The notes below the pieces were generated by a model. It did no database searches. It was not told the DNA's origin and saw only the letters and a list, made by a program, of their open reading frames with translations. A stretch of DNA of 64,000 nt from an uncultured Planctomycetales bacterium (lineage in GTDB: Bacteria > Omnitrophota > Gorgyraeia > Zapsychrales > CAYRXT01): NCBI GenBank assembly GCA_964428315.1, contig CAYRXT010000004.1:4382-68381 (forward strand), written 5' to 3'. Position numbers and translations under genes: made by a program. The number at the start of each line of letters is the position of its first letter. The stretch's first letter is position 1. This document shows, piece after piece, positions 5,971 through 63,646 of this stretch.

Positions 5971-6666
5971 TTAAACGAACTTCTTCTTTTTGACTTTCCG
6001 GATCCCCGTCCCTTTATTATAAAACTCTTTTATAATTGTAATGATTTCTTCCGGAGTATCGACGACGTGAAAGATGTCGAAATCCTTTTCATGGACGCAT
6101 TTTTCTTTCAGCATGGAAGACCTCATCCAGTCTATAAGGCCCTTCCAGTATTTACTGCCGGCGACGATAACCGGGAAACGCTCGTTGCGCCTGGTCTGAA
6201 TGAGGGTCAGGCTCTCAAACAGCTCATCCATCGTCCCGAATCCTCCGGGAAAGATCACAAAGGCCTTGGCGTATTTGACGAACATGACCTTCCGGCAGAA
6301 AAAATAATGAAAATTGATGAGGTTGGTGATATACCTGTTGGGTACCTGTTCAAAGGGGAGTTCGATGTTGAGCCCGACGGACACGCCACGGGCGCGGAAG
6401 GCGCCCCGGTTTCCGGCCTCCATGATACCCGGTCCTCCGCCGGTGATGATGGCGTAGCCTTCCTTCGCCAGAAGATAGGCCGTCTGTTCCGCAAGTTTAT
6501 ACATCTTATGCGACGTCCGAAGCCGCGCCGAACCGAACATCGTCACCGCCGGCCCCACCTGGGACAGCTCACTGAAACCCTCGACGAATTCCGCCATAAT
6601 GCGAAAGACCCGCCACGGATTCTCGATGTCAACATCTTCCGTTATTCCTTTTCGCCTGTTCTTCAT
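5971..6666 (-). CDS. LOG-family (cytokinin riboside 5'-monophosphate phosphoribohydrolase-like) protein
   Basis: 231 aa; both LOG motifs present (GGGPGIMEA and PGGFGTMDE); sits between purQ and purL. Confidence 0.8.
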   Translation of the reverse strand: MKNRRKGITEDVDIENPWRVFRIMAEFVEGFSELSQVGPAVTMFGSARLRTSHKMYKLAEQTAYLLAKEGYAIITGGGPGIMEAGNRGAFRARGVSVGLNIELPFEQVPNRYITNLINFHYFFCRKVMFVKYAKAFVIFPGGFGTMDELFESLTLIQTRRNERFPVIVAGSKYWKGLIDWMRSSMLKEKCVHEKDFDIFHVVDTPEEIITIIKEFYNKGTGIRKVKKKKFV

Positions 6667-32300: not shown

Positions 32301-35300
32301 GGCACCGGTCGGGATCTTCACCTTGGTATACATCTCGATCATGTTTTGGGAATCGTGCCCGATGGGTTCCGTGAAGTACCGTCCGCCCCATCCGAAATTC
32401 TCTATCCCGAAAGGATTCTTCAGCTCCACACCGTACTGCCATGCGTATTTCTCCGCCGACATGAACGGCACAATATTTTTGACAAGCGAGGGATCCTCAA
32501 ACTCACGCGTTACCCAGAATTTCCCGGACTTGGCCACATCTCCCATAGGGATGTTCTCTATGGCTCCCGTGTACCGGTTGTCGTTCAAGCGGTCCCCGCC
32601 GATATTGTTCCCGTCCAGCCTCTCCCAGGTAAAACCCACCGTTACCCCGTCCCTGATGAGTTCATACCCCACTTCGATGAGGCCGAAATACACGTTCCCG
32701 TATCCGTCCGTCACCGTCGGAAAATGCGGCCGCAGGATACTGAACTCAACGCTCGTCGACAATCCTCCCGAAAAGGGCGGCGACATGCCGAAATGGAAGC
32801 CCCGGGTTCCATAGCCCTGGTTGATATCCCGCACGACCCCGACGGAATGCGGCCAGGGAATCCAATTTAATGGGGCCTTCCATGTCAGTTGCGCCGAAAG
32901 CGCCCCTTTGTCCGGTTTCGCCTTGATGCCCACTTCGAGGGGCTTTCCCACGAGATCCCCGGCGTCGGCCGTGATTTTCGCCTCTGGGTATTTGTCCTTT
33001 CTCTCAACACCGCCGCCTCCGGCTATCGACCGGCCGCCCTCCGGGATCCAGTGTGACTTTTGTTTGACTTCAGCCTTCTTGATATTAATGTTTGCCATGT
33101 TGAACAAAGAGGGATCGCCTTGTCCCGCCGGCCGGACAACCTCCGCTTGACCGGATTCCGGGGAGGAAGGTTCCGCGATATCACCCTCGTTCCCCGCTGA
33201 TCCCCCGTTGTCTGTCCCGGGAACCGGCAACCCTTTCTTCGGAACGTTGTTTCCCGGCGGACTTCCGTTACCGTTACCGTCGCCGCTGCCGCCGTCCGAA
33301 CCATTACCGCCGCCGGGAACCGCGCCCAAACCGGATCCGGGGAATGAAAGCTCCGCGTCCCCGTCGCCCGGCATGATATCCAAAGGCACCGCCGCGTCCT
33401 GATCCCAGCGCTCCGTGAAATTACCGGTCTTCCACGCAATGTCGTCAAGCGCCTTGCGGAACCATCTCCAAGCGGTCTCATAACGTTCCGGGAACTTCGT
33501 GACCAGGATATTGCCCCCGCCGGGATAAGGGACATTGCTCACGAACTTCCCGTCCACAGGATAGTCGAAGGTCACCATGCCCCTGCCCGCATCCAGTTCG
33601 ACGGCGCCGAAAAGGGCCTCGGCGGCGATTCTCAAATCCTTTATCTCCTCCGTCGTCAACGCGGCGTCGGGATTTTGATAATAGGTTAGCAGGATCCTGG
33701 CCGTATTCCTGATATAGCCATCATTGATGTGTCCGAACTTTTTCAGAGGTTCCAGATACCGGACGATAGACGCCTCATCAAAAGACATATCCTTTTCTAT
33801 CCGGGGCCCGGTCTGCGCGGGAGGGTCGGCGAGAGGCGGATCAACCCTTTCGGGAGAGATTTTTGCCGTCTCTCCGCCGCTGACCTCGGTCTCCAAGGGG
33901 CCGGCCGGATCCCCGGAGCTTGTCGGGAGGATGTCTTCTTCTAAAGAGGTCCCCGTCATGTTTCCCGGTGACCCGGGCTCCAGATAATAATGCTCCGAGA
34001 GATGGACATTGGGCGGCGGGAGCACCGGGAAGAAACCGGCTGCTTGGTATCCATGAACAGCCGTCGGGATAACGTTCAGATGCGGTTCAAGCGGCGAATC
34101 GGAGGGATCCGGCGGCGCCTGTGGGAAAAGGGGCATTTGTGCCGATTCGATAGCGCCGAATATCGTCATCCCGATCATCAGAGCGGCCATATGCGGCAGG
34201 TATTCCCTGGCCTTGCCGCGCATGGAGACGAGGACATTGGGATTGAGCTCAAAACGCGAAGGCGTCAGGTGACGCCGTATAGCGGCATTCCGCATCTTAC
34301 GGCAGAAAACCTCCAGGTCATAAAACGTCACGTGCCTTTTTTCCTGAAGATGAAATTCCCGGTCTCGCAGGGTGAAATAATCCAGGAGTTTCTTCAGGTC
34401 GCTTTTTCTCCTGTCCGCGGAGGAAAAGGCGTGGTGGACCAGCCTCTCGGCCGCCTCGGTCCCAAACTCGTATTGCGCGGCCTCAAAAACCCATGCCTTC
34501 TTTATATTCTGGATGAGGCGGCGGATTTCCAGGACCGCCTCGTGCGCGTCCGTCCTGGGATCCACGAATATCTGCTGTTTGCCGTCGATCTGTTCGATCC
34601 GCACCATTTTGGATCGTTCGTTGTCCGCCACGTCATCGAAACGGGTGACCGTGACATCAAAGCGCCTGTTGAATATCATGTCGCAGGGCGAAGATATCTC
34701 CCGGATCTTCTCTTCAATGAGCTTCCACTCCTGAAAAAGGCCCCTGGCCAGTTCCTTGGCCTCCTGTCTCTGCCGGTCGCGAACGTCCTTTCTCCCGTGA
34801 TAATCGAAATGAAACCTGACGGGAAGGTAAGATGTCCGCAGAAGATAATCAGGCGCATAGGTCTCCAGCGCTCTGCCGATGAAACGGCCAGCCTTGTTCA
34901 GATATTTAATCTTGCGGCCGGACAAGACGACGGCATGCGAATCCGGGCCGTAAACGTACATGCCGCGGTCAACGGAAGTTTGGATGGTCTGCCTGGCCGC
35001 CAGCAGGGCGTCGGCATAGTCATCCTTCCCGTTGGCCAGTAATGCCGCCAGACGTTCGATCTCGCCCAGGGCCTGGCCGATCTGGTCCTCTTTCAATCCG
35101 GGCGTCGTCAGGATATCTGTTATCAGACGGTCCAGCCATCCCATCATCCGCCCGCCCAGGGCATTGATCTGGTCCTTGTTAACGGCCTCCGGCGCGAGGT
35201 CCGAATAAACCAGTTGGTCGATAGCCTCGCCCGTTATATTCCTGTGCGCCGCCTTCAGCCGCCCTCTGGAGCCTTTCAGCAGCCGGGAGATCAAGGGGGA

Positions 35301-52950: not shown

Positions 52951-53622
52951 ATGAAAAAGCACATCCTTATCTTTGATTTCGACGGCACCATCGCCGACAC
53001 GCACCGGTTTCTCCTGGAAATCTACAACCGGCTCTGCGCCGATTTCCATTACCGGGCCGTCGACCAGGAGGAAATCGCGCGGTTCAAGAATATGACTCCC
53101 CGCGAGATTATCGCCGAACTCAAGATCCCCTTATTGAAGATTCCCGTCATCCTCAACCGCGTAAGGAAAGAATATGTCAAAGGCATCTCGCGGGTCCGGC
53201 CGGTGGACGGCGTCAAAGAGGCCCTCTTCGCCCTCAAGGGGCCTTCGGTGCTTCTGGGCATCCTCTCCTCCAACGAACGCGGAAACATCCGCGCCTTTTT
53301 GGAAAATCACCGGATGGGATTGTTTGACCTGGTGCACACGACAAAGAACATCCTCTCCAAACACATCGCCCTGGCGCGTGTCATCCGGACAAACGGCTGG
53401 TCAAAAAACGAAATCATCTATGTCGGAGACGAGATCCGGGACATCACGGCGGCGAGGAAACTCGGCATCCGGATCGCGGCGGTGACCTGGGGCTACAACT
53501 CGGCCCAGGCCCTGCGCAAACATAATCCGGATTTTCTTTTTGACAGGCCGGAAGAGCTCCGCGATCTCCTCGGCCCCGATGTCCGGGGGGATGTTCAAGC
53601 GGGCGGGAGACCGAGCAGATAA
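52951..53622 (+). CDS. HAD-superfamily hydrolase
   Basis: ILIFDFDGTIADT motif I, VGDEIRDI motif IV. Confidence 0.8.
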   Translation: MKKHILIFDFDGTIADTHRFLLEIYNRLCADFHYRAVDQEEIARFKNMTPREIIAELKIPLLKIPVILNRVRKEYVKGISRVRPVDGVKEALFALKGPSVLLGILSSNERGNIRAFLENHRMGLFDLVHTTKNILSKHIALARVIRTNGWSKNEIIYVGDEIRDITAARKLGIRIAAVTWGYNSAQALRKHNPDFLFDRPEELRDLLGPDVRGDVQAGGRPSR

Positions 53623-54383
53623 TCCGTCTTGATGTTCCTCAGGGCGCCGAAGATATTTTTCACGACATCCTTGTTGTCTTTTTCTAATCGCGCGACAAGC
53701 CTTTTGATGGCCATACGCCGGGTGTTCCCCTCATGGGGACAGGGGTCTCCCGTCATCCCCTCCAGGCCGAGATTCCGGGCCAGACGCATGAGGTCCCTCT
53801 CTCTGACATAACACAGCGGCCGGATGATCGTCACCTTGCCGTCAAAAAGTTCCTGGCGTGGTTTCATGGCGCCGATCTCCGCGCGGTAGAACAAATTCAT
53901 CAAGATCGTCTCGACAATATCGTCCATGTGGTGGCCGAGGGCGATCTTATTGCAGCGTTCCGCGTCCATGAGCCGGAAAAGCGCCTTGCGCCTGTTCCAG
54001 GAACACCAGAAGCAGTCGATATCCTCCCAATTTTTACCGTCGAGAAAATCGGTCTTCTCGATACGGTGATCAAAGCCTTCCTTTTCAAAATGTTTCTTCA
54101 GTCTTTCCTGGTCAAGGCCGGGCGGGCCGCCGTCGATGTGGACGGCCAGGATGTCGAAACGGACAGGGGAGATCTTCTGCCGGTCCCTCATCAGGTGCAA
54201 AAGAGAGAGGCTGTCTTTCCCGCCGGATACCGCGACCATTACCCTGTCGCCTTCTTCCAGCATGCTGAAATCCATGATCGCCCTGCCGGCCTGTTTGGAG
54301 GCAGACGTAAATTCCGGGATGCTTTTTTCAGCGGCTTTCACGCGTCTCGTCCTCGAAGTCGACCATCTGCGGATAGACCACAA
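53595..54383 (-). CDS. ttcA: tRNA 2-thiocytidine(32) synthetase TtcA-like PP-loop ATPase
   Basis: VAVSGGKDS PP-loop, CFWC and CPH cysteine motifs, collinear with E. coli TtcA. Confidence 0.8.
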   Translation of the reverse strand: MWSIRRWSTSRTRRVKAAEKSIPEFTSASKQAGRAIMDFSMLEEGDRVMVAVSGGKDSLSLLHLMRDRQKISPVRFDILAVHIDGGPPGLDQERLKKHFEKEGFDHRIEKTDFLDGKNWEDIDCFWCSWNRRKALFRLMDAERCNKIALGHHMDDIVETILMNLFYRAEIGAMKPRQELFDGKVTIIRPLCYVRERDLMRLARNLGLEGMTGDPCPHEGNTRRMAIKRLVARLEKDNKDVVKNIFGALRNIKTDYLLGLPPA

Positions 54384-55453: not shown

Positions 55454-55519
55454 CTCCCTTCTCGCAAGGACAGTTCGAAAAACCCTTGTTTTAAAAGACA
55501 GATTATATATAATTCACTC

Positions 55520-55915
55520 ATGCACAAACTGGCCATATCTACCGGCAAACGGGAAGAAATCACCGACATCACCGGACGCATCCGGGACTTTATCGAAAAA
55601 AACAAATGCCGTTCGGGCCTCCTGGCCGTCTACTCGCCGCATACGACGGCAGGCATATCGGTGAATGAAAATTACGACCCGGACGTCAAGAGAGATATCA
55701 CCGCCTACCTCAACGCAACGGTGCCCGCCGATTTCGGATTCCGCCACGCCGAAGGCAACTCCGACGCCCATATCAAAGGGGCCCTGGTCAATTTCTCCCA
55801 GGTCTTCATCGTCGAGGACGGGCAGATCCGGCTGGGCACCTGGCAGGGCGTCTTCTTCATGGAGTTCGACGGCCCCCGCCGCAGAGAGGTCTGGCTTCAG
55901 TTCATCCCCGCTTAA
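55520..55915 (+). CDS. yjbQ: YjbQ/UPF0047 family protein
   Basis: 132 aa; C-terminal LGTWQGVFFMEFDGPRRREV matches YjbQ TGTWQGIWLGEHRIHGG. Confidence 0.8.
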   Translation: MHKLAISTGKREEITDITGRIRDFIEKNKCRSGLLAVYSPHTTAGISVNENYDPDVKRDITAYLNATVPADFGFRHAEGNSDAHIKGALVNFSQVFIVEDGQIRLGTWQGVFFMEFDGPRRREVWLQFIPA

Positions 55916-56039: not shown

Positions 56040-56468
56040 TTATTTGTCAGGCCCGGCGGACTTTTCATTCCCGGCCAGGACATCGTAAAGCAGGGCGAAC
56101 AGCGATCCGCCAACGGCCCCGGCGACGGCCCCGATGACAGGTCCCGTGACGGGAAAAGACCGGAAAATGATCATGTCATTGACCATCCCCGTCACCACGC
56201 CGGCCGCAAGACCGGCGAGGACGCCAAAGCCGATACGTCTCGTCTTTTCAAGTTTATTGAGCATCCAGGAGGCCGCCACGGCGGCGCAGAGAGCTCCCCA
56301 GCCTAAGCCCCAAAGATTCGCCAAAATGAAATGCGCTCCATAGTAGTAGGCTGAAAGGCGCATCAGGCCAAAGCCGAGCATAAAGAACATCCAGCTCACG
56401 GCCCCGCCGGACAAGATACACATCACGAACACCGCATGCCGCGCGATGAGTCTGCGTTTATCCGGCAT
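56040..56468 (-). CDS. Hypothetical Gly-rich membrane protein
   Basis: 142 aa from MPDKRRLIARH; glycine-zipper-like TM segments; last gene of the lepB operon. Confidence 0.5.
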   Translation of the reverse strand: MPDKRRLIARHAVFVMCILSGGAVSWMFFMLGFGLMRLSAYYYGAHFILANLWGLGWGALCAAVAASWMLNKLEKTRRIGFGVLAGLAAGVVTGMVNDMIIFRSFPVTGPVIGAVAGAVGGSLFALLYDVLAGNEKSAGPDK

Positions 56469-56500
56469 CGGACGCCTCCTTTCCTTTCCTGACGGGCCGG

Positions 56501-57283
56501 TCAAGGGCCCAGCATGGAGCCCCACGGGCAAGCCCGTGTCCCCTCTCTTATCCGACTTCGTAAATCTTCAGGCGCAATCCGACGAAGCGCCACAGCTTTT
56601 AGTCCGCATTCATCCACGGCTAATAGCCGTGGTATTCTGCGAAGTCGGATAAAAAAGAGCCAGCGCGTATAAATCAAGGTCACGAACGCCCCCCAGGCGA
56701 CGCCCCAGATGTCCCACGCCGGATTGGCAGACTGCCTGACGCCTCCGTCCAGATAGGAATAGTGATAACCGCTCATGAATCCCGCCCAGAGGTAATCACG
56801 GCTGACCGCGGCGCTGTAAGCGGCCGCCCCCAAGTAGATAACGGAACGCAAGACATTCCGCCTCCTCGGGTCAAACGCAAGTTTGGAAATATATCCCTTG
56901 GGCGGGACATCGATCAGCATGAAAAGGTTAGAGGCAACCAATCCGTTTATCGCTCCCGGATACGCACCAAAGACTAAATGTTTCCAGTATCCGGCAGATA
57001 GAAGCTCTCCTCTCAACAATCCCCCCAAGACCATGATACCGGCCCCGCACAACGCCGCCAGGGCCATGCCGTAGATGATATTTCTTTTTTCTTTCAGAAC
57101 CCAGACCATCAGCCAGGCGAAGAATAGTCCCGTGAGTCCGCCCAAAGACCAGGGCAAAATACGGGTAAATACAAAAGAATCCGGAGCATTGTTGTGGACA
57201 AAAAGCATAAAGAGATAACTGTTCGTCAAGATCATATAGACATAAACGACACCGGCCGCCGCCTTTGTTATCCTCTCATTCAT
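56501..57283 (-). CDS. Hypothetical polytopic membrane protein; C-terminal ~45 codons encoded by the 141-bp repeat
   Basis: Start MNERITKAAAG at 57283 (8-bp overlap with the radical SAM gene); the ORF reads into repeat copy 2, giving tail ...LLAVDECGLKAVALRRIAPEDLRSRIREG, which is also translatable from copy 1. Confidence 0.55.
   Translation of the reverse strand: MNERITKAAAGVVYVYMILTNSYLFMLFVHNNAPDSFVFTRILPWSLGGLTGLFFAWLMVWVLKEKRNIIYGMALAALCGAGIMVLGGLLRGELLSAGYWKHLVFGAYPGAINGLVASNLFMLIDVPPKGYISKLAFDPRRRNVLRSVIYLGAAAYSAAVSRDYLWAGFMSGYHYSYLDGGVRQSANPAWDIWGVAWGAFVTLIYTRWLFFIRLRRIPRLLAVDECGLKAVALRRIAPEDLRSRIREGTRACPWGSMLGP
56513..56653. repeat. 141-bp structured repeat, copy 2
   Basis: See copy 1; lies inside the 3' end of the CDS 56501-57283. 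Confidence 0.7.
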
Positions 57284-58511
57284 TGTTGTCTTCTCCCTCT
57301 TTCCATCCCAGCTGTTTGTAGAATTCCGGTATCCCGCCCTGGGAACACCGGGCGCACAGCGCCAGGGATTCGTCATAACCCAGCGGCAGCTTCCCCTTAA
57401 AGGCGGCCCGGATTTTATCGGCATTGGAAAGGATAAAGCATTGCCCCCGGGGCCGGCCGAAGGCCTTGTGCAGGCGGGCGAAAGGCGTCTCAAAACCTTC
57501 CTCTTTCAGGTTGCCGAAGGACAGCGGCGTGAAATCGCACGGGCAGAGGTTCCCGAAGGCGTCGACGTACATGTGCTGGACCCCGGCGCCGCAGCCGTAA
57601 AGGTCCTCGTCCTCGATATAGGCAAAGGCCACCACCTTCGGCATATCTTTGACCTTTTTCGTCTTGATGTGATACTCTTTGAGAAGCTGCCGCTCCTTTT
57701 CCCCGAAAAGCGCCTCCCCGCGGACCTCCATCAGTCTGCCCGTCGGCATCGGCTCCACCAGGCGGATCTCCTGCGCGCCGAGCTCCCGCACAAAACCGAT
57801 AAACCGGTCCATTTCCCCGTCGGACATAAGGTCCTTTGTCGCCGTCAACTGGACGGCCGTATAAAACCCGCCGGCCAAAGCCGTCCTGATCGCGCGGACG
57901 GCGGTATCGAAGGCCTTTGGCGACCCGCGCAGCCGGTTGTGTTTTTCCGGGTCATAATGGTCAAGGCTGATCGCCACATACGTCAGACCGGCTTCCTTCA
58001 ACCTCCCGGCCCGCTCGTCGGTCAGCCCGTCGCCGGTCGAAAACAGTATCGTCGCGGAGCGTTCGTCGATCGAACGGACGATCTCTTCCAGGTCCCTGCG
58101 CCACAACGGCTCGCCGCCGGTAAAACCGATCAGGCAGATCCCGTGGTCCTGAAGCTCGCGCGCGACGCGGATCCATTCTTCCGTCGTCAATTCCTTTCCT
58201 TCACGCAGTTCTTTACTGCAGTGCCAGCACCGGAACCCGCATCGGTCGGTCAGGGACAGGTACGTGGAATACGGGGCCGCGCGGCCTTCATAAATGGCCG
58301 CGGTCGTCCTAGTCAGCTGTTCAAAGGCCCGGCCGGGAAAGGGCGGCAGGAAGGTATGGATCACGTACCGGCCGTCCATCCGGGTAAGCTTTTCGTGCCG
58401 GAAGGTGCTGTTGAGATAAGCCTGCACACTGAGCGGAAGCTTGCGGACATACCCGGTGCGCGCGCGCACGGCGAGGATAACATCTTTCTTGAATCCCGTG
58501 ATATGTTTCAT
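57276..58511 (-). CDS. Radical SAM enzyme with C-terminal SPASM/twitch-type Cys cluster and ~90-aa N-terminal extension
   Basis: CGFRCWHC (CxxxCxxC) at ~residue 90; C-terminal CGAGVQHMYVDAFGNLCPC...CARC auxiliary-cluster cysteines. Confidence 0.8.
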   Translation of the reverse strand: MKHITGFKKDVILAVRARTGYVRKLPLSVQAYLNSTFRHEKLTRMDGRYVIHTFLPPFPGRAFEQLTRTTAAIYEGRAAPYSTYLSLTDRCGFRCWHCSKELREGKELTTEEWIRVARELQDHGICLIGFTGGEPLWRRDLEEIVRSIDERSATILFSTGDGLTDERAGRLKEAGLTYVAISLDHYDPEKHNRLRGSPKAFDTAVRAIRTALAGGFYTAVQLTATKDLMSDGEMDRFIGFVRELGAQEIRLVEPMPTGRLMEVRGEALFGEKERQLLKEYHIKTKKVKDMPKVVAFAYIEDEDLYGCGAGVQHMYVDAFGNLCPCDFTPLSFGNLKEEGFETPFARLHKAFGRPRGQCFILSNADKIRAAFKGKLPLGYDESLALCARCSQGGIPEFYKQLGWKEGEDNNE

Positions 58512-59398
58512 TGTCTTTGCGCGATCCCGGCGGCATATTTGTGGGACACCGTTATGCCCTCTGCCGTTTTATAGTCGCGTTCCATGATCTCGACAAAGGC
58601 GGCGTCACACTGCGCCCGGACCGCCGGATCCATCATGCGGTCGAACCCCGCGCTCGCGCCGGTGCGCATGACCCACTCGAGCACTTCTTTCCCGTCTTTA
58701 AACAGAAAATCGATCCGGCCCTGCCAGAGTGTCAGCGGTCTTAATCCCGCCTTCCGAAACCATCCCCCCAGCTCTTCTTTATCTTTCGGCAGGCGCTGTG
58801 TGAGGACCATCAGGCCCTGGATGTGATTCGGGAAGCGGCGCATCACCTTGAGTCCCGTCTCGCGCAAAGGGGCCAGTGTATCCTGGCGGTTTTCTATTAT
58901 GCCTACCCTTCCTCCCGGTTTGAGGTTGGCCTTGATCTGTTTCAAGAGCGCATGCGGCCTCGCGTATCCGATGGCCCACCCGCAGGTCACGAAGTCAAAG
59001 GTGGCCTTGGGGAAACGCTGGACGGCCGCGGCCATATCGGCCTCGACAAACTGCACGTCTCCCTTCACTTTATGCCTTGCCGACTCCAGCATACCCCTGG
59101 AGGCATCGACCGCGACGATCCTGCCGCGGCCGCCCAGTATGATATCGACCGCGGAGGTGATGTTTCCCGTCCCGCAGGCGAGGTCCAGGACGCTGGCCCC
59201 GCGGTGGATGTTCATTTTCTCAATGAGTTTATGGGCGTGAGGCCGCGTGAAACGGGCGAAGCATTCATCGTAACCGCGGGCCAGCCTGTCGTAATCCTCG
59301 ATGACGACAGAGGCCGGGATGACCTTCCGGCTCAGGAAAAGCCGAAGAATGCGCCGGTAAAAAACCGCTGACCGCATCAGATCTTCTATACGCGCCAT
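58508..59398 (-). CDS. Class I SAM-dependent methyltransferase
   Basis: True start MARIEDL (ATG at 59398); VLDLACGTGN motif I; 4-bp overlap with the radical SAM gene. Confidence 0.8.
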   Translation of the reverse strand: MARIEDLMRSAVFYRRILRLFLSRKVIPASVVIEDYDRLARGYDECFARFTRPHAHKLIEKMNIHRGASVLDLACGTGNITSAVDIILGGRGRIVAVDASRGMLESARHKVKGDVQFVEADMAAAVQRFPKATFDFVTCGWAIGYARPHALLKQIKANLKPGGRVGIIENRQDTLAPLRETGLKVMRRFPNHIQGLMVLTQRLPKDKEELGGWFRKAGLRPLTLWQGRIDFLFKDGKEVLEWVMRTGASAGFDRMMDPAVRAQCDAAFVEIMERDYKTAEGITVSHKYAAGIAQRQ

Positions 59399-59417
59399 AT
59401 GACAATTCCCGCCATGA

Positions 59418-60245
59418 TCATTGCGGCCTCCAGATGGGATAACCCTTGCCCTTGATCGCTTCCCTCGGGACGAACCCCCAGATCCGGCTGTCCAGGCTGA
59501 CCGCACTGTTGTCGCCCAGGACATAGTAATAGCCCTCCGGCACTTTGACGGCTTTGCCCTTCCGTCCCAGGGGACCGCGGTTGAAGTAACGGACATTTTC
59601 CGCGCCCGGGATTTCGGTCCTTTCGCCGTTGATCCAGATGTCCCCGTCCTTGATCTCGACGGTCTCCCCTCCCGTTGCCACGATGCGCTTGACCATATGC
59701 CGGTGGCTGGTCGCCGGCTCATCGAAGACGATCACATCTCCTCTCTGAGGCGGTGATTGCCTGTACACGGCCTTGTCCAAAAGATAGATCCCGAAGGGCG
59801 GAAAGTTCGGCTCCATGGAATTGGAACGTATCGAAAAAATATGGGCCACACTGCCGGTAATCCACCAGCCGAACAGAAACGGCGGGTTGATGAAAATACA
59901 CTGGAACAGGATAAGCGTCAGGATGTAAATCCGCCGGCCGTGGAACGTGAACCGGACGAATTCTTTTGCCTGCCCGATGAGGGGGAATATCTTGATATGC
60001 AGGTCGGTGAAAAACATGATATCGGAGGCGCTGAGGATATGCAGAAGCCACAGCAGGGGCACAAGAATAAAAAGCCAGGCGAGGTCGGTATGGTTGTTGA
60101 CGATAATGCCGGTTAGCGTGAAAAGGAGGCAATAACCGAGGACAAAGGCCAGACCGCGCCAGGGCCGGTGGACGCGGAAATGCCCCAGCCCGGGGATAAT
60201 GAGGGAACGCACGATCATGAGCAGCTGCCGGTCCGTAGGGTTCAC
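59418..60245 (-). CDS. lepB: Signal peptidase I with extended N-terminal membrane region
   Basis: SNSMEP (catalytic Ser box), KR box (HMVKR), GDNSAVSLDSR box. Confidence 0.85.
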   Translation of the reverse strand: MNPTDRQLLMIVRSLIIPGLGHFRVHRPWRGLAFVLGYCLLFTLTGIIVNNHTDLAWLFILVPLLWLLHILSASDIMFFTDLHIKIFPLIGQAKEFVRFTFHGRRIYILTLILFQCIFINPPFLFGWWITGSVAHIFSIRSNSMEPNFPPFGIYLLDKAVYRQSPPQRGDVIVFDEPATSHRHMVKRIVATGGETVEIKDGDIWINGERTEIPGAENVRYFNRGPLGRKGKAVKVPEGYYYVLGDNSAVSLDSRIWGFVPREAIKGKGYPIWRPQ

Positions 60246-60460
60246 GGAATCAATTATATATGAAAAAATGGGGCTTGACCATATCCTGCCGGAACTTTTC
60301 GAGACGGGACATCCTTAACATTATTAAGCACATAAACCTTTTAAGCGGATTACAGGTCAGGCACGTTTTGTGGCTTTACCCTGTTGCCCAAGGTTCCCAT
60401 TGCGGGCGGGGCTAAGCCCGGCGAGGACCCCGAAGAAAGGGCAATGTGACGGAACAATCG

Positions 60461-60925
60461 CTACGGCTGTTCCTCTTCTGATCCCGCGGCCTCCGTCGGA
60501 GAGGTCAGGCTTTCCCGGACCGTCTCTCTTAACGCGTCCATATCCCGCCGCAGCCGCTGTTGACTGTCTTCAAGGCCATTCAACCGCGACCTTAACCCGG
60601 GTTCCAATCCGGCATCGGTTCCGGTTTCCTTCAGTGCCGAAAGGGTTTTCTCGAGCTCCGCCAGCCTGTTTTCCATTTTCCTGATGCGGACCAGCATGCC
60701 TTCGTCGGGATCATCGACGATGATCTGTCCGCCGATCTTCCTGACCTTCGTCCCCTCCGGGACGATAACCTTGTACCCCTCCGTCACGTGGATGGTCTCC
60801 ATGCCTTCGGGGGCATCCGCCTCCATGGGGGAAGATCCCTGCTGGGCGCCCGCCACGGAAAAGGCAGTTAAGGCCGAAATCCCAACGAAGAAGCCAATCA
60901 AGATGACACGTATCCATTTTTCCAT
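60461..60925 (-). CDS. Secreted coiled-coil hypothetical protein
   Basis: 155 aa from MEKWIRVILIGFFVGISALTAFSVAGA (signal peptide; AAGGA SD); C-terminal heptad-type helices. Confidence 0.55.
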   Translation of the reverse strand: MEKWIRVILIGFFVGISALTAFSVAGAQQGSSPMEADAPEGMETIHVTEGYKVIVPEGTKVRKIGGQIIVDDPDEGMLVRIRKMENRLAELEKTLSALKETGTDAGLEPGLRSRLNGLEDSQQRLRRDMDALRETVRESLTSPTEAAGSEEEQP

Positions 60926-61453: not shown

Positions 61454-63646
61454 TTACCAGCGAAGGTAGTCAAAACCGGTAAGCTCTTCGACAAAATCCT
61501 TGAGCCGGATGACAGGCAGGAGATTGGTGTATTGATCCGTCCACGGCCGGATACCCTCTTTAAACCGCGGCGTATTCCATTGGAGGCGGCGCCGCAGCCT
61601 TTCTGTTTTACTTCTATCCCAGCTCACGGCGGCCCAGAGCGAGAAAAAGGCGTCGTCCTCTTCGCCTTGTTTGCGGTAGAATTTGACGCTGCATTCCGCG
61701 CCGAGGTGACGCGCGTTGACGGCCACCACCGGCACAAGGTCCAGATAAAGATTGGAGACATGAAAGAGGATCAGCCCTCCGGGGCTGAGATGCCGGCGGT
61801 ATTCGGCGATCGCCTCGACGGTCAAGAGATGGACAGGCACCGAATCGCCGCTGAAGGCGTCGATGATAATAAGGTCATAGTGGTTTTCGGGCATTTGCCG
61901 CAAGGTGAGACGGGCATCCCCGAAGACAAAACGCAGTCTGCCCCGGGCGTCGCGCAGGTAGGTGAAATGCCGCCCGGCCATCTTATAGACATCGGGGTCG
62001 ATCTCGAAGAAATCCATATACGTCCGCGGCGAGGTATACCGCGCCAGGGTCCCGGTCCCCAGTCCGACAACCGCGACCCTCGTGAACCGGAAAAGGTCCG
62101 ACGTCAACACCTCGCCGACCGGCGCGCGCCGGTGGAAGTAGGCCAGCGCGATCTTCCTTTTCGCCTGTTCGATGTACTGGACGCCGTGGATGGTGGCCCC
62201 GTGCATCAGATGGACCTTCCCCCTCTCGCAGTACACCTTATAGATGCCGTAATAATTGCGGTGTTTGTCGATAAACATTTTCTGCGTCCAGAGGAGTTCC
62301 AGCAGGGAAATCAGCAAGATCACGGGGATCAGGCTTAAGAAAAGAGCCTGGGGGTTCTTTTTCAAATGGCCGTAGATAATCCAGAAGGCCGCTGTGATAA
62401 CGATGAGACCGATCAGGCTGTATTGACGGAAGACCATCGGCCATAAGACCAGAAAGAGCACAGCGTACACGATCCACCGGATATCCTCCCCCCTGACCCC
62501 GGCCCACGGCCGGCGTTTGATCAAGGCCGATGTCAGGACGGCGAGCCCGATAAGAAATTCGGCCATCGTTTTCGACAGAAGCGGGATCACCCAGCTGACC
62601 AGGACCCCGCCGGCGAAACCGCCGAAGGCTATCCACAGATAATACGTCGTCAAACGGCTGACGTCCGCCGGACGGCGCCTGTACAATTCCCTTTGACAAA
62701 ACATGCACAGCACAAAAAGCAGGATCAGGAAAGCGGCTACTTCCAGCAGATAAGGCAGGATGCGCTTCTGGGCCAGGAAAAAGAGGACTACGCCCAGGCC
62801 CATGAACTCGGGCATCCTGTTTGTCATCCATAACGGACATAACGGCGGATCGCGAAAATTCAGTGCATAGGATAGAAGATAAATACACAATGGCACGACC
62901 CATAAAAGCGGGACCGGGGCGACTTCATAGGTGAGGATGTTGGTCACCGACAAAAACAGGACCGGGCCCGCCGCGGCCAGCAGGAACCACTCCCTCGCTT
63001 CGTGTTGCGGCGCGGCCGGCTCAAAACGGCGCCTACCCTCACGGTTGTCTTTTTCAGTTCTGACCAACAGGAAGACAACCCCGAACAAGATCAGCAACAC
63101 GGTATAGCCCCACCGCCAGAGGATAAGCTGACGGCCAAGGTCCAGCCGGGCCTCAAACACAAAGGGGTAGCTTAACAAGGCGGCGAATGAACCAAAATTG
63201 GAGACCGCGTAGAGAAAATAGGGGCTGTGCCGGCCCGGTAATCGGGACGCGGCCGTCCAGTCCTGCATAACGACGCTCATCGTGCTCAGGACAAAGAAGA
63301 CCGGCCCGACGGTGACCAGCAGTAAGACAAAGACGTCGGCCGCCAGGGGCAAAGACGCGTGGGGCGATATGTCCGGTAACGGTCGTCCCGGGAAAAAAAG
63401 AAGGGGAACGCCCATCAGCAGAAAATGAAACGGACGGTATCGGTCAATGCCCTGTTTTCTGAGGACCAGATGGGCATACAGGTATCCCCCAAGCAGCATC
63501 CCCTGAAAGAAGGCCACACAGGCCCCCCACACCAGATAGCTCCCGCCGAACTCGGGCAGAAGGAGCTTGGCCATGATCAGCTCGATCTGGAAGAGCAGGA
63601 ACGCGGCGAGAAGGACAACGGCGCCGGTTATCCAAAGGAGGATCAT
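61454..63646 (-). CDS. Spermidine-synthase-family (aminopropyltransferase-like) domain fused to a large polytopic membrane domain
   Basis: ~13 TM N-terminal region; C-terminal VVGLGTGTLARY...DLIIIDAFSGDSVP SpeE-like Rossmann motifs. Confidence 0.75.
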   Translation of the reverse strand: MILLWITGAVVLLAAFLLFQIELIMAKLLLPEFGGSYLVWGACVAFFQGMLLGGYLYAHLVLRKQGIDRYRPFHFLLMGVPLLFFPGRPLPDISPHASLPLAADVFVLLLVTVGPVFFVLSTMSVVMQDWTAASRLPGRHSPYFLYAVSNFGSFAALLSYPFVFEARLDLGRQLILWRWGYTVLLILFGVVFLLVRTEKDNREGRRRFEPAAPQHEAREWFLLAAAGPVLFLSVTNILTYEVAPVPLLWVVPLCIYLLSYALNFRDPPLCPLWMTNRMPEFMGLGVVLFFLAQKRILPYLLEVAAFLILLFVLCMFCQRELYRRRPADVSRLTTYYLWIAFGGFAGGVLVSWVIPLLSKTMAEFLIGLAVLTSALIKRRPWAGVRGEDIRWIVYAVLFLVLWPMVFRQYSLIGLIVITAAFWIIYGHLKKNPQALFLSLIPVILLISLLELLWTQKMFIDKHRNYYGIYKVYCERGKVHLMHGATIHGVQYIEQAKRKIALAYFHRRAPVGEVLTSDLFRFTRVAVVGLGTGTLARYTSPRTYMDFFEIDPDVYKMAGRHFTYLRDARGRLRFVFGDARLTLRQMPENHYDLIIIDAFSGDSVPVHLLTVEAIAEYRRHLSPGGLILFHVSNLYLDLVPVVAVNARHLGAECSVKFYRKQGEEDDAFFSLWAAVSWDRSKTERLRRRLQWNTPRFKEGIRPWTDQYTNLLPVIRLKDFVEELTGFDYLRW

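What the first reader, a model, noticed from the sequence alone, without database searches (positions are those of the whole stretch)
56040..60245. Tight operon: signal peptidase I - SAM methyltransferase - radical SAM/SPASM enzyme - two unknown membrane proteins (candidate protein/peptide maturation system)
Five minus-strand genes with 4-8-bp overlaps or gaps of at most 32 bp, so they are translationally coupled. LepB has SNSMEP and GDNS...DSR boxes. The class I methyltransferase has VLDLACGTGN. The radical SAM gene has CGFRCWHC preceded by a ~90-aa N-terminal extension (possible substrate-recognition domain) and followed by a C-terminal auxiliary Cys cluster (CGAGVQHMYVDAFGNLCPC...CARC). Two polytopic or Gly-rich membrane proteins of unknown family follow. 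A secreted 155-aa coiled-coil protein with a cleavable signal peptide lies immediately upstream on the same strand (60461-60925). Radical SAM/SPASM enzymes paired with a methyltransferase and a dedicated peptidase are typical of RiPP or protein post-translational-modification pathways, but no recognisable precursor (Cys-rich or Gly-rich leader peptide) or sulfatase substrate is present. The substrate and the product are therefore unknown.
Basis: partly seen in the sequence, partly recalled or inferred. Interest (0 to 1): 0.6.

Follow-up and report, generated by a model that had tools for sequence, protein, structure and literature searches.

The report
Conserved methyltransferase–radical SAM membrane cassette
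The five genes form a real operon, but only the methyltransferase, the radical SAM enzyme and the small membrane proteins recur in relatives; in a sister lineage this uncharacterised cassette follows a tiny unannotated gene (a signal peptide plus Cys-Gly-Pro-Ile/Val/Leu), which points to a new kind of very small modified peptide or lipopeptide.

Summary
In detail: genes, motifs, overlaps and gaps are as described, and a promoter-like site precedes LepB.

- **Conservation.** A class I methyltransferase (MT) sits directly upstream of the radical SAM (rSAM) gene in about 70 of 82 related loci from many anaerobic bacterial and archaeal phyla. MT–rSAM fusion proteins exist.
- **Membrane proteins.** memb2 belongs to a tiny family found beside the pair in all Omnitrophota-type loci. 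memb1 is a distant paralogue.
- **Not conserved.** LepB and the secreted 155-aa protein occur in no related locus.
- **The rSAM.** It is not an anaerobic sulfatase-maturing enzyme (anSME). It has a twitch-like domain (three invariant auxiliary Cys plus one mostly conserved), not a full SPASM domain. No RRE was detected. The closest solved structure is the sactipeptide synthase SkfB.
- **The MT.** Its fold is closest to carboxyl O- and thiol S-methyltransferases.
- **New.** In a sister clade an unannotated 20–33-codon ORF precedes the MT, with its stop overlapping or within 4 nt of the MT start in the eight junctions read. It encodes a lipoprotein-like signal peptide followed only by C-G-P-[I/V/L]. 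It is present in 11/14 genome loci and 38/54 metagenome loci.
- **This window.** No such ORF exists here or in 20 same-clade loci, so the substrate remains inferred.

Best reading: a membrane-associated maturation cassette for a small Cys-peptide or lipopeptide (confidence about 0.4).

The parts
60253..60281 (-). Sigma-70-like promoter match (TGGTCA-17-TATAAT) just upstream of LepB; the likely start of the operon.
   Evidence: 10 of 12 matches. This is a consensus match only. The 215-nt intergenic region upstream is seen.
59418..60245 (-). Signal peptidase I (LepB). The catalytic S26 domain spans residues about 120-270. An N-terminal hydrophobic, probably multi-spanning extension of about 120 aa precedes it. 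It is co-transcribed, but it is a lineage-specific addition to the cassette.
   Evidence: PF10502 at 121 bits; TIGR02227 at 123 bits against a cut-off of 47. The Ser box SNSMEP, the Lys box VKRIVA and GDNS..DSR are read. No homologue in 84 related loci.
58508..59398 (-). Class I SAM-dependent methyltransferase with a conserved C-terminal lid. Residues Y36, Y43, W141, Y145, N170, W242 and H286 are conserved across the family. There is no conserved Cys.
   Evidence: generic class I domains; best match BioC at 63.6 bits against a cut-off of 185; conservation; model pLDDT 93.9; nearest solved folds are BioC, TmtA/GtmA, Tam, JHAMT and LahSB; directly upstream of the rSAM gene in about 70 of 82 loci.
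57276..58511 (-). Radical SAM enzyme. It has a CxxxCxxC cluster (C91, C95, C98) and a twitch-like auxiliary domain (C307, C325 and C358 invariant; C386 mostly conserved). It also has a family-specific 80-aa N-terminal domain with an EK-TR...FLPPFP motif.
   Evidence: AlphaFold model pLDDT 93.6. Closest solved relatives are SkfB, PqqE, MoaA and BlsE. No NCBIfam equivalog cut-off is reached.
56501..57283 (-). memb1: a 260-aa polytopic membrane protein. It is a distant, partly duplicated paralogue of the memb2 (c9) family.
   Evidence: a c9 profile hits it at E = 7e-7, in two partial domains that share the WGxxWGA motif. No Pfam or NCBIfam family. It overlaps the rSAM stop by 8 bp.
56040..56471 (-). 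memb2: a 143-aa Gly-rich membrane protein with 3-4 predicted transmembrane helices, of the small 'c9' family. Invariant residues are S26, F29, WG..WG, VN and several Gly. It is the conserved third partner of the cassette in Omnitrophota-type loci.
   Evidence: present beside the MT–rSAM pair in all 7 related Omnitrophota-type genome loci; also in L093; only about 8 representatives among 1.8 billion representative proteins.

Best explanation
The core of the operon is MT, rSAM, memb1 and memb2. It is a member of a widespread, uncharacterised, membrane-associated tailoring cassette. I think its substrate is the short Cys-containing tail of a small signal-peptide-led peptide or mini-lipoprotein.

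**Shown**
- The MT and rSAM are an obligate pair. They are adjacent across phyla, fused in some proteins, and overlap by ATGA here.
- In Omnitrophota-type loci a c9-family membrane protein always accompanies the pair.
- In the sister clade the pair is immediately preceded by a 20-33-codon ORF. Its stop overlaps the MT start in six of the eight junctions read and lies 1-4 nt upstream in the other two.
- That ORF encodes a positively charged start, a hydrophobic segment, small residues, and then Cys-Gly-Pro-Ile/Val/Leu followed by the stop.

**Inferred mechanism**
1. In the cytoplasm or at the inner membrane face, the twitch-type rSAM abstracts a hydrogen from the tail.
2. By analogy with its nearest solved relative SkfB, it most plausibly forms a Cys-S to carbon thioether across the Gly-Pro turn. 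Epimerisation or another C-H functionalisation of the last residue is an alternative.
3. The BioC/Tam/LahSB/TmtA-like MT methylates the C-terminal carboxylate, or the thiol.
4. The small membrane proteins hold or translocate the product.
5. A signal peptidase removes the hydrophobic leader.

In this genome a type I signal peptidase gene has been recruited into the operon. The precursor is not encoded in the operon, so it must lie elsewhere or differ in form.
For: **MT–rSAM pairing**
- tblastn finds the MT next to the rSAM in 66 of 84 loci. Clustering finds it in 70 of 82.
- A 697-aa MT–rSAM fusion protein exists, P0046.

**c9 family**
- It lies beside the pair in all Omnitrophota-type loci. 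memb1 is a paralogue.

**The mini-ORF**
- It occurs in 11 loci from Verrucomicrobiota, Lentisphaerota, Elusimicrobiota, Desulfobacteraceae, a Cyanobacteriota MAG and an Alphaproteobacteria MAG. It is always just upstream of the MT.
- A scan of whole loci on both strands for a hydrophobic stretch followed by x-G-P-x(1-2)-stop gave 13 hits. Ten of them are these ORFs.
- Most have Shine-Dalgarno-like sequences. Of the eight peptide/MT junctions read, six have the stop overlapping the MT start (ATGA, GTGA or TAATG) and two have the MT start 1-4 nt after it.
- In an independent metagenome set it occurs in 38 of 54 loci: 21 end in I, 11 in V and 6 in L.
- The ORFs weakly match only lipoprotein signal-sequence models.

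**Clades A and B share chemistry-relevant residues**
- H97, C323 and D317 in the rSAM are shared by these two clades only.
- All the MT lid residues are shared across the family.

**Closest characterised relatives**
- rSAM: SkfB at 110 bits with the family profile, then PqqE; the fold search gives SkfB, BlsE and SuiB.
- MT: fold nearest to carboxyl O- and thiol S-methyltransferases, including the RiPP C-terminal methyltransferase LahSB.

**Recurrent lipoprotein, peptide-export or acyl-repair neighbours**
- An Lnt–MT fusion protein next to the rSAM.
- LplT-Aas in 4 loci, with PlsY also beside the cassette in the one locus where it was annotated.
- Two FtsX permeases plus an ABC ATPase.
- OEP–MFP–MacB.
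- A palmitoyl-thioesterase-like lipoprotein and an M28 peptidase.
Against: - No mini-ORF of this or any similar type exists in the 64-kb window or in 20 same-clade loci. The substrate here is therefore extrapolated from a sister clade at about 40% rSAM identity.
- The largest clade (Firmicutes, CPR bacteria, DPANN archaea; two MTs plus the rSAM) also shows no peptide.
- Some homologues sit in clearly non-peptide contexts. One is a ketosynthase / polyketide-cyclase cluster in Desulforamulus ruminis. Others are TusA fusions with YeeE and a cysteine desulfurase.
- No RRE is present.
- Topology problem: the rSAM and MT are cytoplasmic, while a signal-peptide tail of 3-4 residues would end up outside the cell. 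Modification would have to precede export.
- The excess of membrane proteins immediately downstream across the whole family is only marginal: 16/38 against 83/316, p = 0.054.
- LepB adjacency is seen in one genome only.
- The clades come from average-linkage clustering, not from a proper phylogeny.
Confidence: 0.4

Rival explanations
1. The MT–rSAM pair tailors a non-peptide substrate, such as a membrane lipid, a lipid head group or acyl chain, or a small metabolite. The chemistry might be C-S bond formation followed by S-methylation, or carboxyl methyl-ester protection followed by radical chemistry and de-esterification. Under this reading the membrane proteins are scaffolds or flippases. The mini-ORF of the sister clade is then an acceptor, a small subunit or a regulatory leader rather than the defining substrate.
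For: - Most loci have no peptide gene.
- Lipid-metabolism neighbours occur: LplT-Aas and PlsY, a CdsA-like gene plus Methyltransf_20, an Aas-like gene, UbiA, and a ketosynthase cluster.
- An alpha/beta hydrolase lies just downstream in 7 of 59 neighbours. This would fit a BioC/BioH-like protect-and-deprotect logic, and BioC is the best MT match.
- TusA-fused paralogues sit with YeeE, a cysteine desulfurase and an Se/S-carrier protein, which hints at sulfur chemistry.
- The cassette is present in both archaea and bacteria, including CPR and DPANN lineages.
Against: - The sister-clade mini-ORF is tightly coupled to the MT gene and has an invariant C-G-P tail. That is hard to explain unless it is a substrate or a stoichiometric partner.
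- The closest characterised rSAM relatives modify peptides (SkfB, PqqE, MftC, StsB).
- None of the known lipid rSAM families matches. HpnH scores 49 bits and Tes about 40 bits, both far below cut-off. A 2026 review of lipid-modifying rSAM enzymes (PMC13459092) has no section on an enzyme of this type.
- Neighbourhoods are highly variable.
Confidence: 0.3
2. All five genes, possibly with the upstream secreted 155-aa protein as substrate, form one dedicated RiPP or protein-maturation system. LepB is its leader peptidase and the rSAM N-terminal extension is an RRE.
For: - Tight co-transcription under one promoter-like site.
- LepB carries all the catalytic boxes.
- A signal-peptide-type leader in the sister clade would need a signal peptidase.
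- Other peptidases (M28, M20, an Rce1-like protein, and a weak below-cut-off M50B-like match) occasionally neighbour the cassette.
Against: - LepB and the 155-aa protein are absent from all 84 related loci. These include 7 Omnitrophota-type loci, and also the two closest metagenome contigs.
- The 155-aa protein has no Cys and no conserved tail.
- No PqqD/RRE signal was found, and the N-terminal secondary-structure order differs from that of an RRE.
- From general knowledge, housekeeping lepB genes often share operons with unrelated genes.
Confidence: 0.1
3. The rSAM enzyme is an anaerobic sulfatase-maturing enzyme (anSME), or an anSME-like formylglycine generator acting on a C-x-P-x motif.
For: - The sister-clade tail C-G-P-x resembles the first four positions of the sulfatase C/S-x-P/A-x-R motif (the sulfatase motif is from general knowledge).
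- anSMEs modify signal-peptide-bearing substrates before export (general knowledge).
Against: - With the family profile, anSME scores only 33 bits against 110 bits for SkfB.
- anSME is not among the 25 NCBIfam matches shown.
- Only 3-4 conserved auxiliary Cys are present, where anSME has two auxiliary clusters.
- No sulfatase gene is nearby. The Arg of the sulfatase motif is missing because the peptide ends there.
Confidence: 0.03

Closest known systems
Sactipeptide / ranthipeptide maturases, especially SkfB (twitch-domain rSAM thioether synthase)
   Same: SkfB is the closest solved structure and the best sequence-profile match (110 bits; Foldseek E = 1e-15). Both have a CxxxCxxC core plus a C-terminal twitch-like auxiliary cluster domain. 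In the sister clade there is a Cys-containing short peptide gene in the operon.
   Different: Only about 22% identity, and far below the SkfB equivalog cut-off (58 bits against 300). No RRE; a different, family-specific N-terminal domain. The candidate core is only 4 residues long. The leader looks like a Sec or lipoprotein signal peptide. An obligatory class I MT partner is present. No precursor is found in this window.
PQQ and mycofactocin pathways (PqqA/PqqE, MftA/MftC)
   Same: A small peptide (about 20-30 aa) whose conserved C-terminal residues are the substrate of a SPASM/twitch rSAM enzyme, so that the peptide is a scaffold for a very small product. PqqE and MftC are among the best NCBIfam matches (97 and 83 bits).
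   Different: Scores lie far below the cut-offs of 381 and 265. There is no PqqD/MftB RRE partner. The leader here is hydrophobic and signal-peptide-like, and the core is C-G-P-[I/V/L].
Bacterial lipoprotein pathway (Lgt, LspA, Lnt, LolCDE, with LplT-Aas repair)
   Same: The sister-clade mini-ORFs have a positively charged start, a hydrophobic segment and a lipobox-like [A/L/V..][A/S/T][G/A/S]-C. They weakly match lipoprotein signal-sequence models. The family's neighbours include an Lnt fusion, LplT-Aas and a LolCDE-like ABC system.
   Different: The mature part would be only four residues long. Lipidation is untested, and the same residues also fit a type I signal-peptidase site. The operon here carries a type I, not a type II, signal peptidase. 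No lipoprotein-pathway step is known to use an rSAM enzyme or an MT (general knowledge).
Agr autoinducing-peptide maturation (AgrD/AgrB plus type I signal peptidase SpsB)
   Same: From general knowledge: a small peptide with a membrane-targeting N-terminal leader is cyclised through its Cys, and its leader is removed by a type I signal peptidase. This is a functional analogy for an operon that contains LepB.
   Different: There is no homology to AgrB or AgrD. The cyclisation chemistry here would be radical, not a thiolactone made by a protease. The analogy rests on inference only.
BioC/BioH-type carboxyl methyl-ester masking; LahSB C-terminal methylation of RiPPs
   Same: BioC is the best structural and NCBIfam match for the MT. 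The carboxyl methyltransferases Tam, JHAMT and LahSB follow. Alpha/beta hydrolases recur downstream in some clades.
   Different: BioC scores 63.6 bits against a cut-off of 185. The thiol methyltransferases TmtA and GtmA match equally well. The atom that is methylated is unknown.

Membership tests
Signal peptidase I (S26, TIGR02227) | Score above the curated cut-off, plus the Ser/Lys catalytic boxes | tested here: met
   TIGR02227 at 123.4 bits against a cut-off of 47; PF10502 at 121 bits. SNSMEP, VKRIVA and GDNS..DSR are read in the sequence.
Anaerobic sulfatase-maturing enzyme (anSME) | Sequence membership (equivalog-level similarity to anSME) | tested here: not met
   Not among the 25 NCBIfam matches shown. 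With the family profile, anSME structures score 33 bits against 110 bits for SkfB.
Anaerobic sulfatase-maturing enzyme (anSME) | Two auxiliary [4Fe-4S] clusters from a full seven-Cys SPASM motif, and a sulfatase substrate with C/S-x-P/A-x-R | tested here: not met
   Only C307, C325 and C358 are invariant and C386 is mostly conserved. No sulfatase was seen in the surveyed neighbourhoods of related loci. The genes flanking the operon here are HAD, PP-loop, TPR, UPF0047 and MFS/spermidine-synthase genes.
SPASM domain (PF13186) | Full-length match with the CX2CX5CX3C block that binds two auxiliary clusters | tested here: not met
   22.7 bits against a cut-off of 21.5, covering only profile positions 1-40 of 67. 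No CX2CX5CX3C block is present in the sequence. The domain is best described as twitch-like.
RRE (PqqD-like leader-recognition element) in the rSAM N-terminal extension | PqqD-family sequence signal, or a three-strand then three-helix winged-helix topology | tested here: not met
   No PF05402 hit at E < 0.01. In the model the order is strand, three helices, two strands, helix. The profile match to SkfB begins at residue 76 and excludes the extension. A dedicated structural comparison of the isolated domain was not run.
Sactipeptide / ranthipeptide maturase | An rSAM core plus an auxiliary-cluster domain related to known sactisynthases | tested here: met
   SkfB is the best solved relative. StsB, SkfB and AlbA models match at 49-87 bits, all below their cut-offs.
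Sactipeptide / ranthipeptide maturase | A Cys-containing precursor peptide gene in the same locus | tested here: not met
   None in this window or in 20 same-clade loci. The feature is met in the sister clade: 11/14 genome loci and 38/54 metagenome loci.
Sactipeptide / ranthipeptide maturase | A thioether (Cys S to carbon) in the product | not testable with these tools
   Requires mass spectrometry or NMR of the product.
BioC (malonyl-ACP O-methyltransferase) | Equivalog-level score | tested here: not met
   TIGR02072 at 63.6 bits against a cut-off of 184.95. The fold is nevertheless closest to BioC.
ArsM-type arsenite methyltransferase | Conserved As(III)-binding cysteines | tested here: not met
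   No Cys is conserved across the 54 aligned MT sequences. ArsM models score at most 37 bits against cut-offs of 500 or more.
Bacterial lipoprotein precursor (applies to the sister-clade mini-ORFs) | A positively charged start, a hydrophobic segment, and a lipobox [LVI][ASTVI][GAS]C | tested here: inconclusive
   Position -1 is always G, A or S, position -2 is mostly small, and position -3 is A, L, V, I, M, F, S or T. There are weak hits to lipoprotein signal-sequence models, below their cut-offs. The same residues also fit a type I signal-peptidase site. Lipidation cannot be tested here.
Known anti-phage defence systems (PADLOC) | A match to a defence-system protein model beyond generic domain similarity | tested here: not met
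   Only generic matches were found: rSAM core to pVip at 36 bits, and MT domain to mad2.

The most novel reading that the evidence does not exclude
The MT–rSAM cassette family defines a new class of ribosomal natural product. Its precursor is essentially a signal peptide plus a four-residue core, C-G-P-[I/V/L]. The product would be either the smallest known lipoprotein, tailored before export, or a released cyclic and methylated tetrapeptide signal. The family is widespread in uncultured anaerobes, including organisms found in human-gut metagenomes. The window's operon would then be a member whose precursor is encoded elsewhere in the genome and which has recruited its own type I signal peptidase and duplicated membrane partners.
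Probability: 0.3. Interest if true: 0.85.

Novelty: new variant of a known kind. Interest (0 to 1): 0.6.

Why it matters
**Scale of the unknown.** This rSAM family has at least 1,756 homologues at E <= 1e-10. It is spread over many anaerobic phyla of both domains. It has no equivalog model, no solved structure and no paper that I could find.

**A concrete starting point.** An obligatory MT partner, fusion proteins, and an unannotated mini-gene with an invariant C-G-P tail in one clade together give a testable way to learn what the family does.

**If the peptide reading is right.** It would add a RiPP-like class with three unusual properties:
- the leader is a secretion or lipoprotein signal peptide;
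- the core is only four residues long;
- no RRE is involved.

Standard RiPP genome-mining would miss all three. In one public assembly the mini-ORF lies under an MT gene whose start was called too far upstream, in another frame.

**Relevance.** Tiny lipopeptides are potent innate-immune ligands (general knowledge). The gut-metagenome members would therefore be of interest beyond enzymology.

**If the lipid or metabolite reading is right.** The family would still be a new and widespread anaerobic tailoring reaction.

Tried and rejected
1. **anSME, PqqE, MftC, MoaA, AhbD/NirJ, HpnH or Tes membership.** All matches lie far below their curated cut-offs.
2. **ArsM/ArsS-type organoarsenic chemistry.** The MT has no conserved Cys.
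3. **Anti-phage defence system.** Only generic PADLOC and PHROG domain matches were found.
4. **Riboswitch or other RNA element upstream.** Nothing reaches an Rfam threshold.
5. **A conserved third enzyme.** Pfam profiling of 59 downstream and 51 upstream same-strand neighbours shows highly variable content. The commonest family is alpha/beta hydrolase, in 7 of 59.
6. **A precursor in this window or clade.** I scanned for C-G-P tails, for a lipobox followed by a tail of up to 12 residues, and for hydrophobic mini-ORFs of 14-60 aa. I also clustered small ORFs by BLAST. Nothing consistent emerged.
7. **Homology between the Omnitrophota c9 membrane proteins and the Verrucomicrobia c12 membrane proteins.** The profile-profile probability is only 26%, so this is unresolved.
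8. **Enrichment of membrane proteins just downstream across the whole family.** Marginal, p = 0.054.
9. **Literature.** Searches combining radical SAM with methyltransferase, lipid, Omnitrophota, DPANN, Patescibacteria, lipobox, precursor peptide, twitch or methyl ester found no description of this cassette.

Full report
**1. The observation**

- LepB, 59418-60245;
- methyltransferase (MT), 58508-59398;
- radical SAM enzyme (rSAM), 57276-58511;
- memb1, 56501-57283;
- memb2, 56040-56471.

The junctions, read from the sequence, are:
- a 19-nt gap between LepB and the MT;
- a 4-bp ATGA overlap between the MT and the rSAM;
- an 8-bp ATGAATGA overlap between the rSAM and memb1;
- a 29-nt gap before memb2, with a GGAAAGGAGG ribosome-binding site.

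A sigma-70-like promoter match lies just upstream of LepB at 60281-60253. No Rfam family reaches its threshold in 55-62 kb.

Pfam and NCBIfam confirm the following:
- a catalytically complete signal peptidase I (TIGR02227 at 123 bits against a cut-off of 47);
- a generic class I MT;
- an rSAM enzyme (84.5 bits);
- no family at all for the two membrane proteins.

The SPASM hit is marginal and partial: 22.7 bits against 21.5, covering profile positions 1-40 of 67.

**2. What is conserved**

The rSAM protein has at least 1,756 homologues at E <= 1e-10. The closest are at 55-60% identity, and those that carry a source name are from Omnitrophota. More distant ones come from Kiritimatiellia, Lentisphaerota, Verrucomicrobiota, Elusimicrobiota, Clostridia, CPR bacteria, DPANN archaea, Thermoplasmatota and others.

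I fetched 80 species-representative genome loci and compared them with the window.
- An MT homologue is found in 66 of 84 loci by tblastn, almost always ending at the rSAM start.
- ORF clustering finds the MT in 70 of 82 loci.
- A 697-aa MT–rSAM fusion protein exists, P0046.
- LepB, memb1 and the upstream secreted 155-aa protein have no homologue in any of these loci. memb2 was detected in only one by tblastn.
- A profile built from the small membrane proteins next to the pair (the 'c9' family) detects memb2 at 153 bits. It finds a c9 member beside the pair in all seven Omnitrophota-type genome loci.
- The same profile detects memb1 as a distant, partly duplicated paralogue (E = 7e-7; shared WGxxWGA motif).
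- One of the two closest metagenome contigs has MT–rSAM–c9; in the other the c9 gene is broken by frameshifts. Neither has a LepB.
- The c9 family is tiny: about 8 representatives among 1.8 billion representative proteins.

The conserved unit is therefore MT–rSAM everywhere, and MT–rSAM–c9 in this lineage. LepB is a one-genome addition. It is co-transcribed, but conservation gives no support for a functional link.

**3. The enzymes**

*The rSAM.*
- Across 30 diverse family members the invariant Cys are C91, C95 and C98 (the SAM cluster) and C307, C325 and C358.
- C386 is conserved in most sequences. C323, H97 and D317 are conserved only in the window's clade and in one neighbouring clade.
- There is no CX2CX5CX3C block. 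The C-terminal domain is therefore twitch-like, probably binding one auxiliary cluster, and not a full SPASM domain.
- No NCBIfam equivalog is approached. The best matches are MoaA at 108 bits (cut-off 284), NirJ2 and AhbD at about 105 (cut-off 500), PqqE at 97 (cut-off 381), MftC at 83 (cut-off 265), StsB at 82 (cut-off 625) and SkfB at 58 (cut-off 300).
- With a family profile, the closest solved protein is the sactipeptide thioether synthase SkfB (110 bits, E = 8e-31). PqqE, MoaA and BlsE follow. anSME scores only 33 bits.
- A confident AlphaFold model (pLDDT 93.6) gives the same neighbours by Foldseek: SkfB, BlsE, SuiB, MoaA and viperin.
- The 80-residue N-terminal extension carries a family-specific motif, EK.TR..G.YV.NSFLPPFP.AF. 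It has no PqqD hit. Its secondary-structure order (strand, three helices, two strands, helix) is unlike that of an RRE. It lies outside the region that aligns with SkfB.

*The MT.*
- It has no conserved Cys, so it is not of the ArsM type.
- It has a conserved aromatic and His-rich lid: Y36, Y43, W141, Y145, N170, W242 and H286. These residues are shared by all clades.
- Its model (pLDDT 93.9) is closest to BioC, the thiol S-methyltransferases TmtA and GtmA, trans-aconitate methyltransferase, juvenile-hormone-acid methyltransferase and the RiPP C-terminal methyltransferase LahSB.

**4. A candidate substrate in the sister clade**

Clustering of small ORFs turned up tiny ORFs immediately upstream of the MT gene in 11 genome loci. 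These come from Verrucomicrobiota, Lentisphaerota/Victivallales, Elusimicrobiota, Desulfobacteraceae, a Cyanobacteriota MAG and an Alphaproteobacteria MAG. Examples are MKNNLTLSIITLAVLIASVLSGCGPV, MKKFFTILALIALISACGPI and MRNPWFLLLLALAAFAGCGPI.

Each has the same layout:
- a short, positively charged start;
- a hydrophobic stretch;
- small residues;
- an invariant Cys-Gly-Pro;
- one aliphatic residue, and then the stop.

Evidence that these ORFs are real:
- A scan of whole loci on both strands for a hydrophobic stretch followed by x-G-P-x(1-2)-stop returned 13 hits. Ten are these ORFs, all at the same position relative to the rSAM gene.
- Most have Shine-Dalgarno-like sequences. I read eight of the peptide/MT junctions. 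In six the stop overlaps the MT start (ATGA, GTGA or TAATG), and in two the MT start follows within 1-4 nt.
- In one abundant Verrucomicrobiota cluster the ORF lies under an MT gene whose start was called too far upstream, in another frame.
- By average-linkage clustering of rSAM identities, these loci form one group, and 11 of its 14 members have the ORF. This group lies next to the window's groups.
- An independent scan of metagenome contigs with this clade's rSAM found the ORF in 38 of 54 loci that had enough upstream sequence. Of these, 21 end in I, 11 in V and 6 in L. Thirteen near-identical contigs, most labelled as human-gut metagenome assemblies, carry MKKILIALSFIIFTAACGPI.
- The peptides weakly match only lipoprotein signal-sequence models such as LptM, below their cut-offs.
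- The residues before the Cys fit a lipobox in most cases. They fit a type I signal-peptidase -3/-1 site equally well.
- A search of the paper library for 'lipobox' together with 'radical SAM', 'precursor peptide' and 'RiPP' listed no paper that contains 'lipobox' among the 15 best-ranked results.

**5. No such ORF in this window**

Scans of all 64 kb, and of 20 loci of the window's clade, found nothing consistent. The scans covered C-G-P tails, a lipobox followed by a tail of up to 12 residues, and hydrophobic mini-ORFs.

The largest clade has two MTs before the rSAM gene and often an alpha/beta hydrolase after it. It comprises Firmicutes, CPR bacteria and DPANN archaea, and it also shows no peptide.

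The substrate of the window's enzymes is therefore inferred, on two grounds:
- the MT lid residues are shared by all clades;
- the rSAM residues H97, C323 and D317 are shared specifically with the mini-ORF clade.

**6. Neighbourhood themes**

Neighbours are variable overall, but several recur and relate to lipoproteins, peptide export or acyl repair:
- An apolipoprotein N-acyltransferase (Lnt) fused to the MT, next to the rSAM gene, in a Nanobdellota archaeon.
- An LplT-acyltransferase-acyl-ACP-synthetase fusion (Aas-like) directly after the rSAM gene in four Kiritimatiellia/Verrucomicrobia loci. Three of these also carry a large lipoprotein (c20), and one is followed by PlsY.
- An Aas-like gene upstream, and OEP–MFP–MacB downstream, in one of the closest contigs.
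- Two FtsX permeases plus an ABC ATPase, a LolCDE/MacB-like arrangement, directly after the rSAM gene in a Victivallales locus.
- A palmitoyl-protein-thioesterase-like lipoprotein, and in another locus a CdsA-like gene with a second MT upstream and an M28 peptidase downstream.
- Other peptidases appear sporadically: M28, M20, an Rce1-like protein and a weak, below-cut-off M50B-like match.

Some contexts point the other way:
- a ketosynthase / polyketide-cyclase cluster in Desulforamulus ruminis;
- TusA-fused paralogues with YeeE, a cysteine desulfurase and an Se/S-carrier protein.

Across the whole family, the excess of membrane proteins directly downstream is only marginal (p = 0.054).

**7. 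Mechanism**

The reading I commit to, at a confidence of about 0.4, is that the cassette tailors the very short Cys-containing tail of a membrane-targeted peptide.

The rSAM enzyme has a SkfB-like architecture. The Gly-Pro pair would favour a turn that brings the Cys close to the final aliphatic residue. Together these make a Cys-S to carbon thioether the most economical proposal. Epimerisation or another C-H functionalisation of the last residue is an alternative.

The MT, by its fold relatives, would methylate either the C-terminal carboxylate or the thiol. Because the rSAM and MT are cytoplasmic, modification must precede export. The c9 proteins (c12 in the sister clade) would hold or translocate the product.

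Leader removal depends on the fate of the thiol:
- if the thiol is consumed, a type I signal peptidase is needed, and this operon encodes one;
- if the thiol stays free, the Lgt/Lsp/Lnt route would give a four-residue lipopeptide.

Every step after 'the genes are coupled' is inference.

The main rival, at about 0.3, is a non-peptide substrate such as a lipid or a small metabolite. It explains the many loci without a peptide gene and the lipid-type neighbours. It does not explain the tightly coupled, invariant C-G-P mini-ORF.

**8. Comparison with known systems, and novelty**

The system resembles sactipeptide, PQQ and mycofactocin logic: a small peptide whose conserved C-terminal residues are the substrate of a twitch/SPASM rSAM enzyme. 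It meets no family's curated threshold. It lacks an RRE. It has an obligatory MT partner. Where a precursor is visible, the leader is of the signal-peptide type and the core is four residues long.

I rate it a new variant of a known kind, namely rSAM-dependent peptide tailoring, resting on an uncharacterised enzyme family. For this particular window the operon is real and interesting. Its substrate and product are still unknown, and its most eye-catching gene, LepB, is not part of the conserved system.

Noticed in passing
window 26307-36896 (-): A single 3,529-aa ORF with no Pfam match at E < 1e-4. A 2026 preprint on Omnitrophota genomes (10.64898/2026.06.07.730766, listed) mentions very long proteins in its title. 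This may be one of them.
   Followed up: partly
window 61454-63646 (-): A 730-aa polytopic membrane protein with a C-terminal spermidine-synthase-like domain (NF037959, fused MFS/spermidine synthase, 59.6 bits against a cut-off of 40). It is followed by a perfect 17-bp GC-rich hairpin terminator at 61234-61198.
   Followed up: partly
window 60461-60925 (-): A 154-aa protein with an N-terminal signal-like segment, no Cys, and a coiled-coil-like C-terminal half. It has its own promoter-like site at 60975-60948. It is absent from all related cassette loci, so it is probably unrelated to the operon.
   Followed up: yes
L085 6001-7479 and L086 416-1894 (also L036, L039, L048): A Thermoplasmata-type branch of the same rSAM family has a C-terminal TusA domain. 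It sits with a YeeE-type transporter, free TusA proteins, a cysteine desulfurase and a DUF3343 Se/S-carrier protein, without an adjacent MT. This suggests a sulfur- or selenium-handling paralogue.
   Followed up: partly
L087 3698-6007 (= L030 5557-7866): In a Nanobdellota (DPANN) archaeon, a 769-aa protein fuses an apolipoprotein N-acyltransferase (LNT_N plus CN_hydrolase) to the cassette's MT. It lies between a short MT and the rSAM gene, and an alpha/beta hydrolase follows further downstream.
   Followed up: partly
L024 5108-13250: An Elusimicrobiota locus carries three paralogous rSAM genes of this family plus one MT. A UbiA-family prenyltransferase lies directly upstream and a DUF2062 protein downstream.
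   Followed up: no
L003/L004 1-8089 (Desulforamulus ruminis): The homologue in a cultured Firmicute sits in a cluster with two ketoacyl synthases, a short MT, a weak (marginal) Caroten_synth-family match, an NAD-dependent epimerase, a polyketide cyclase/SRPBCC protein and a putative cyclase. This looks like a lipid or polyketide pathway rather than a peptide one.
   Followed up: no
L089-L092 6033-7004: The public gene call for the MT (323 aa) starts too far upstream and in a different frame. It runs over the 31-codon mini-ORF MKTAVARFWMTCCLWLLAGLVLLFAAGCGPL at 6064-6159, so the mini-ORF is not called as a gene.
   Followed up: yes
L093 7658-8173, L094 6710-7225, L005 9264-9797: A conserved 171-177-aa Cys-containing protein (motifs ECPY...YCxFQC...EC) follows the cassette in three of the closest Omnitrophota-type loci. 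It is absent from this window, and the one copy scanned against Pfam (L005) gave no match.
   Followed up: partly
L094 6268-6720: The c9 (memb2-family) gene of this close relative is broken by frameshifts. This is either a pseudogene or an assembly error.
   Followed up: no
window 53595-54383 (-), 55502-55915 (+), 52951-53622 (+): The flanking genes are ordinary: a PP-loop ATPase (possibly of the TtcA/TilS type), a UPF0047/YjbQ-family protein on the opposite strand that separates the operon from the next minus-strand gene, and a HAD hydrolase.
   Followed up: yes
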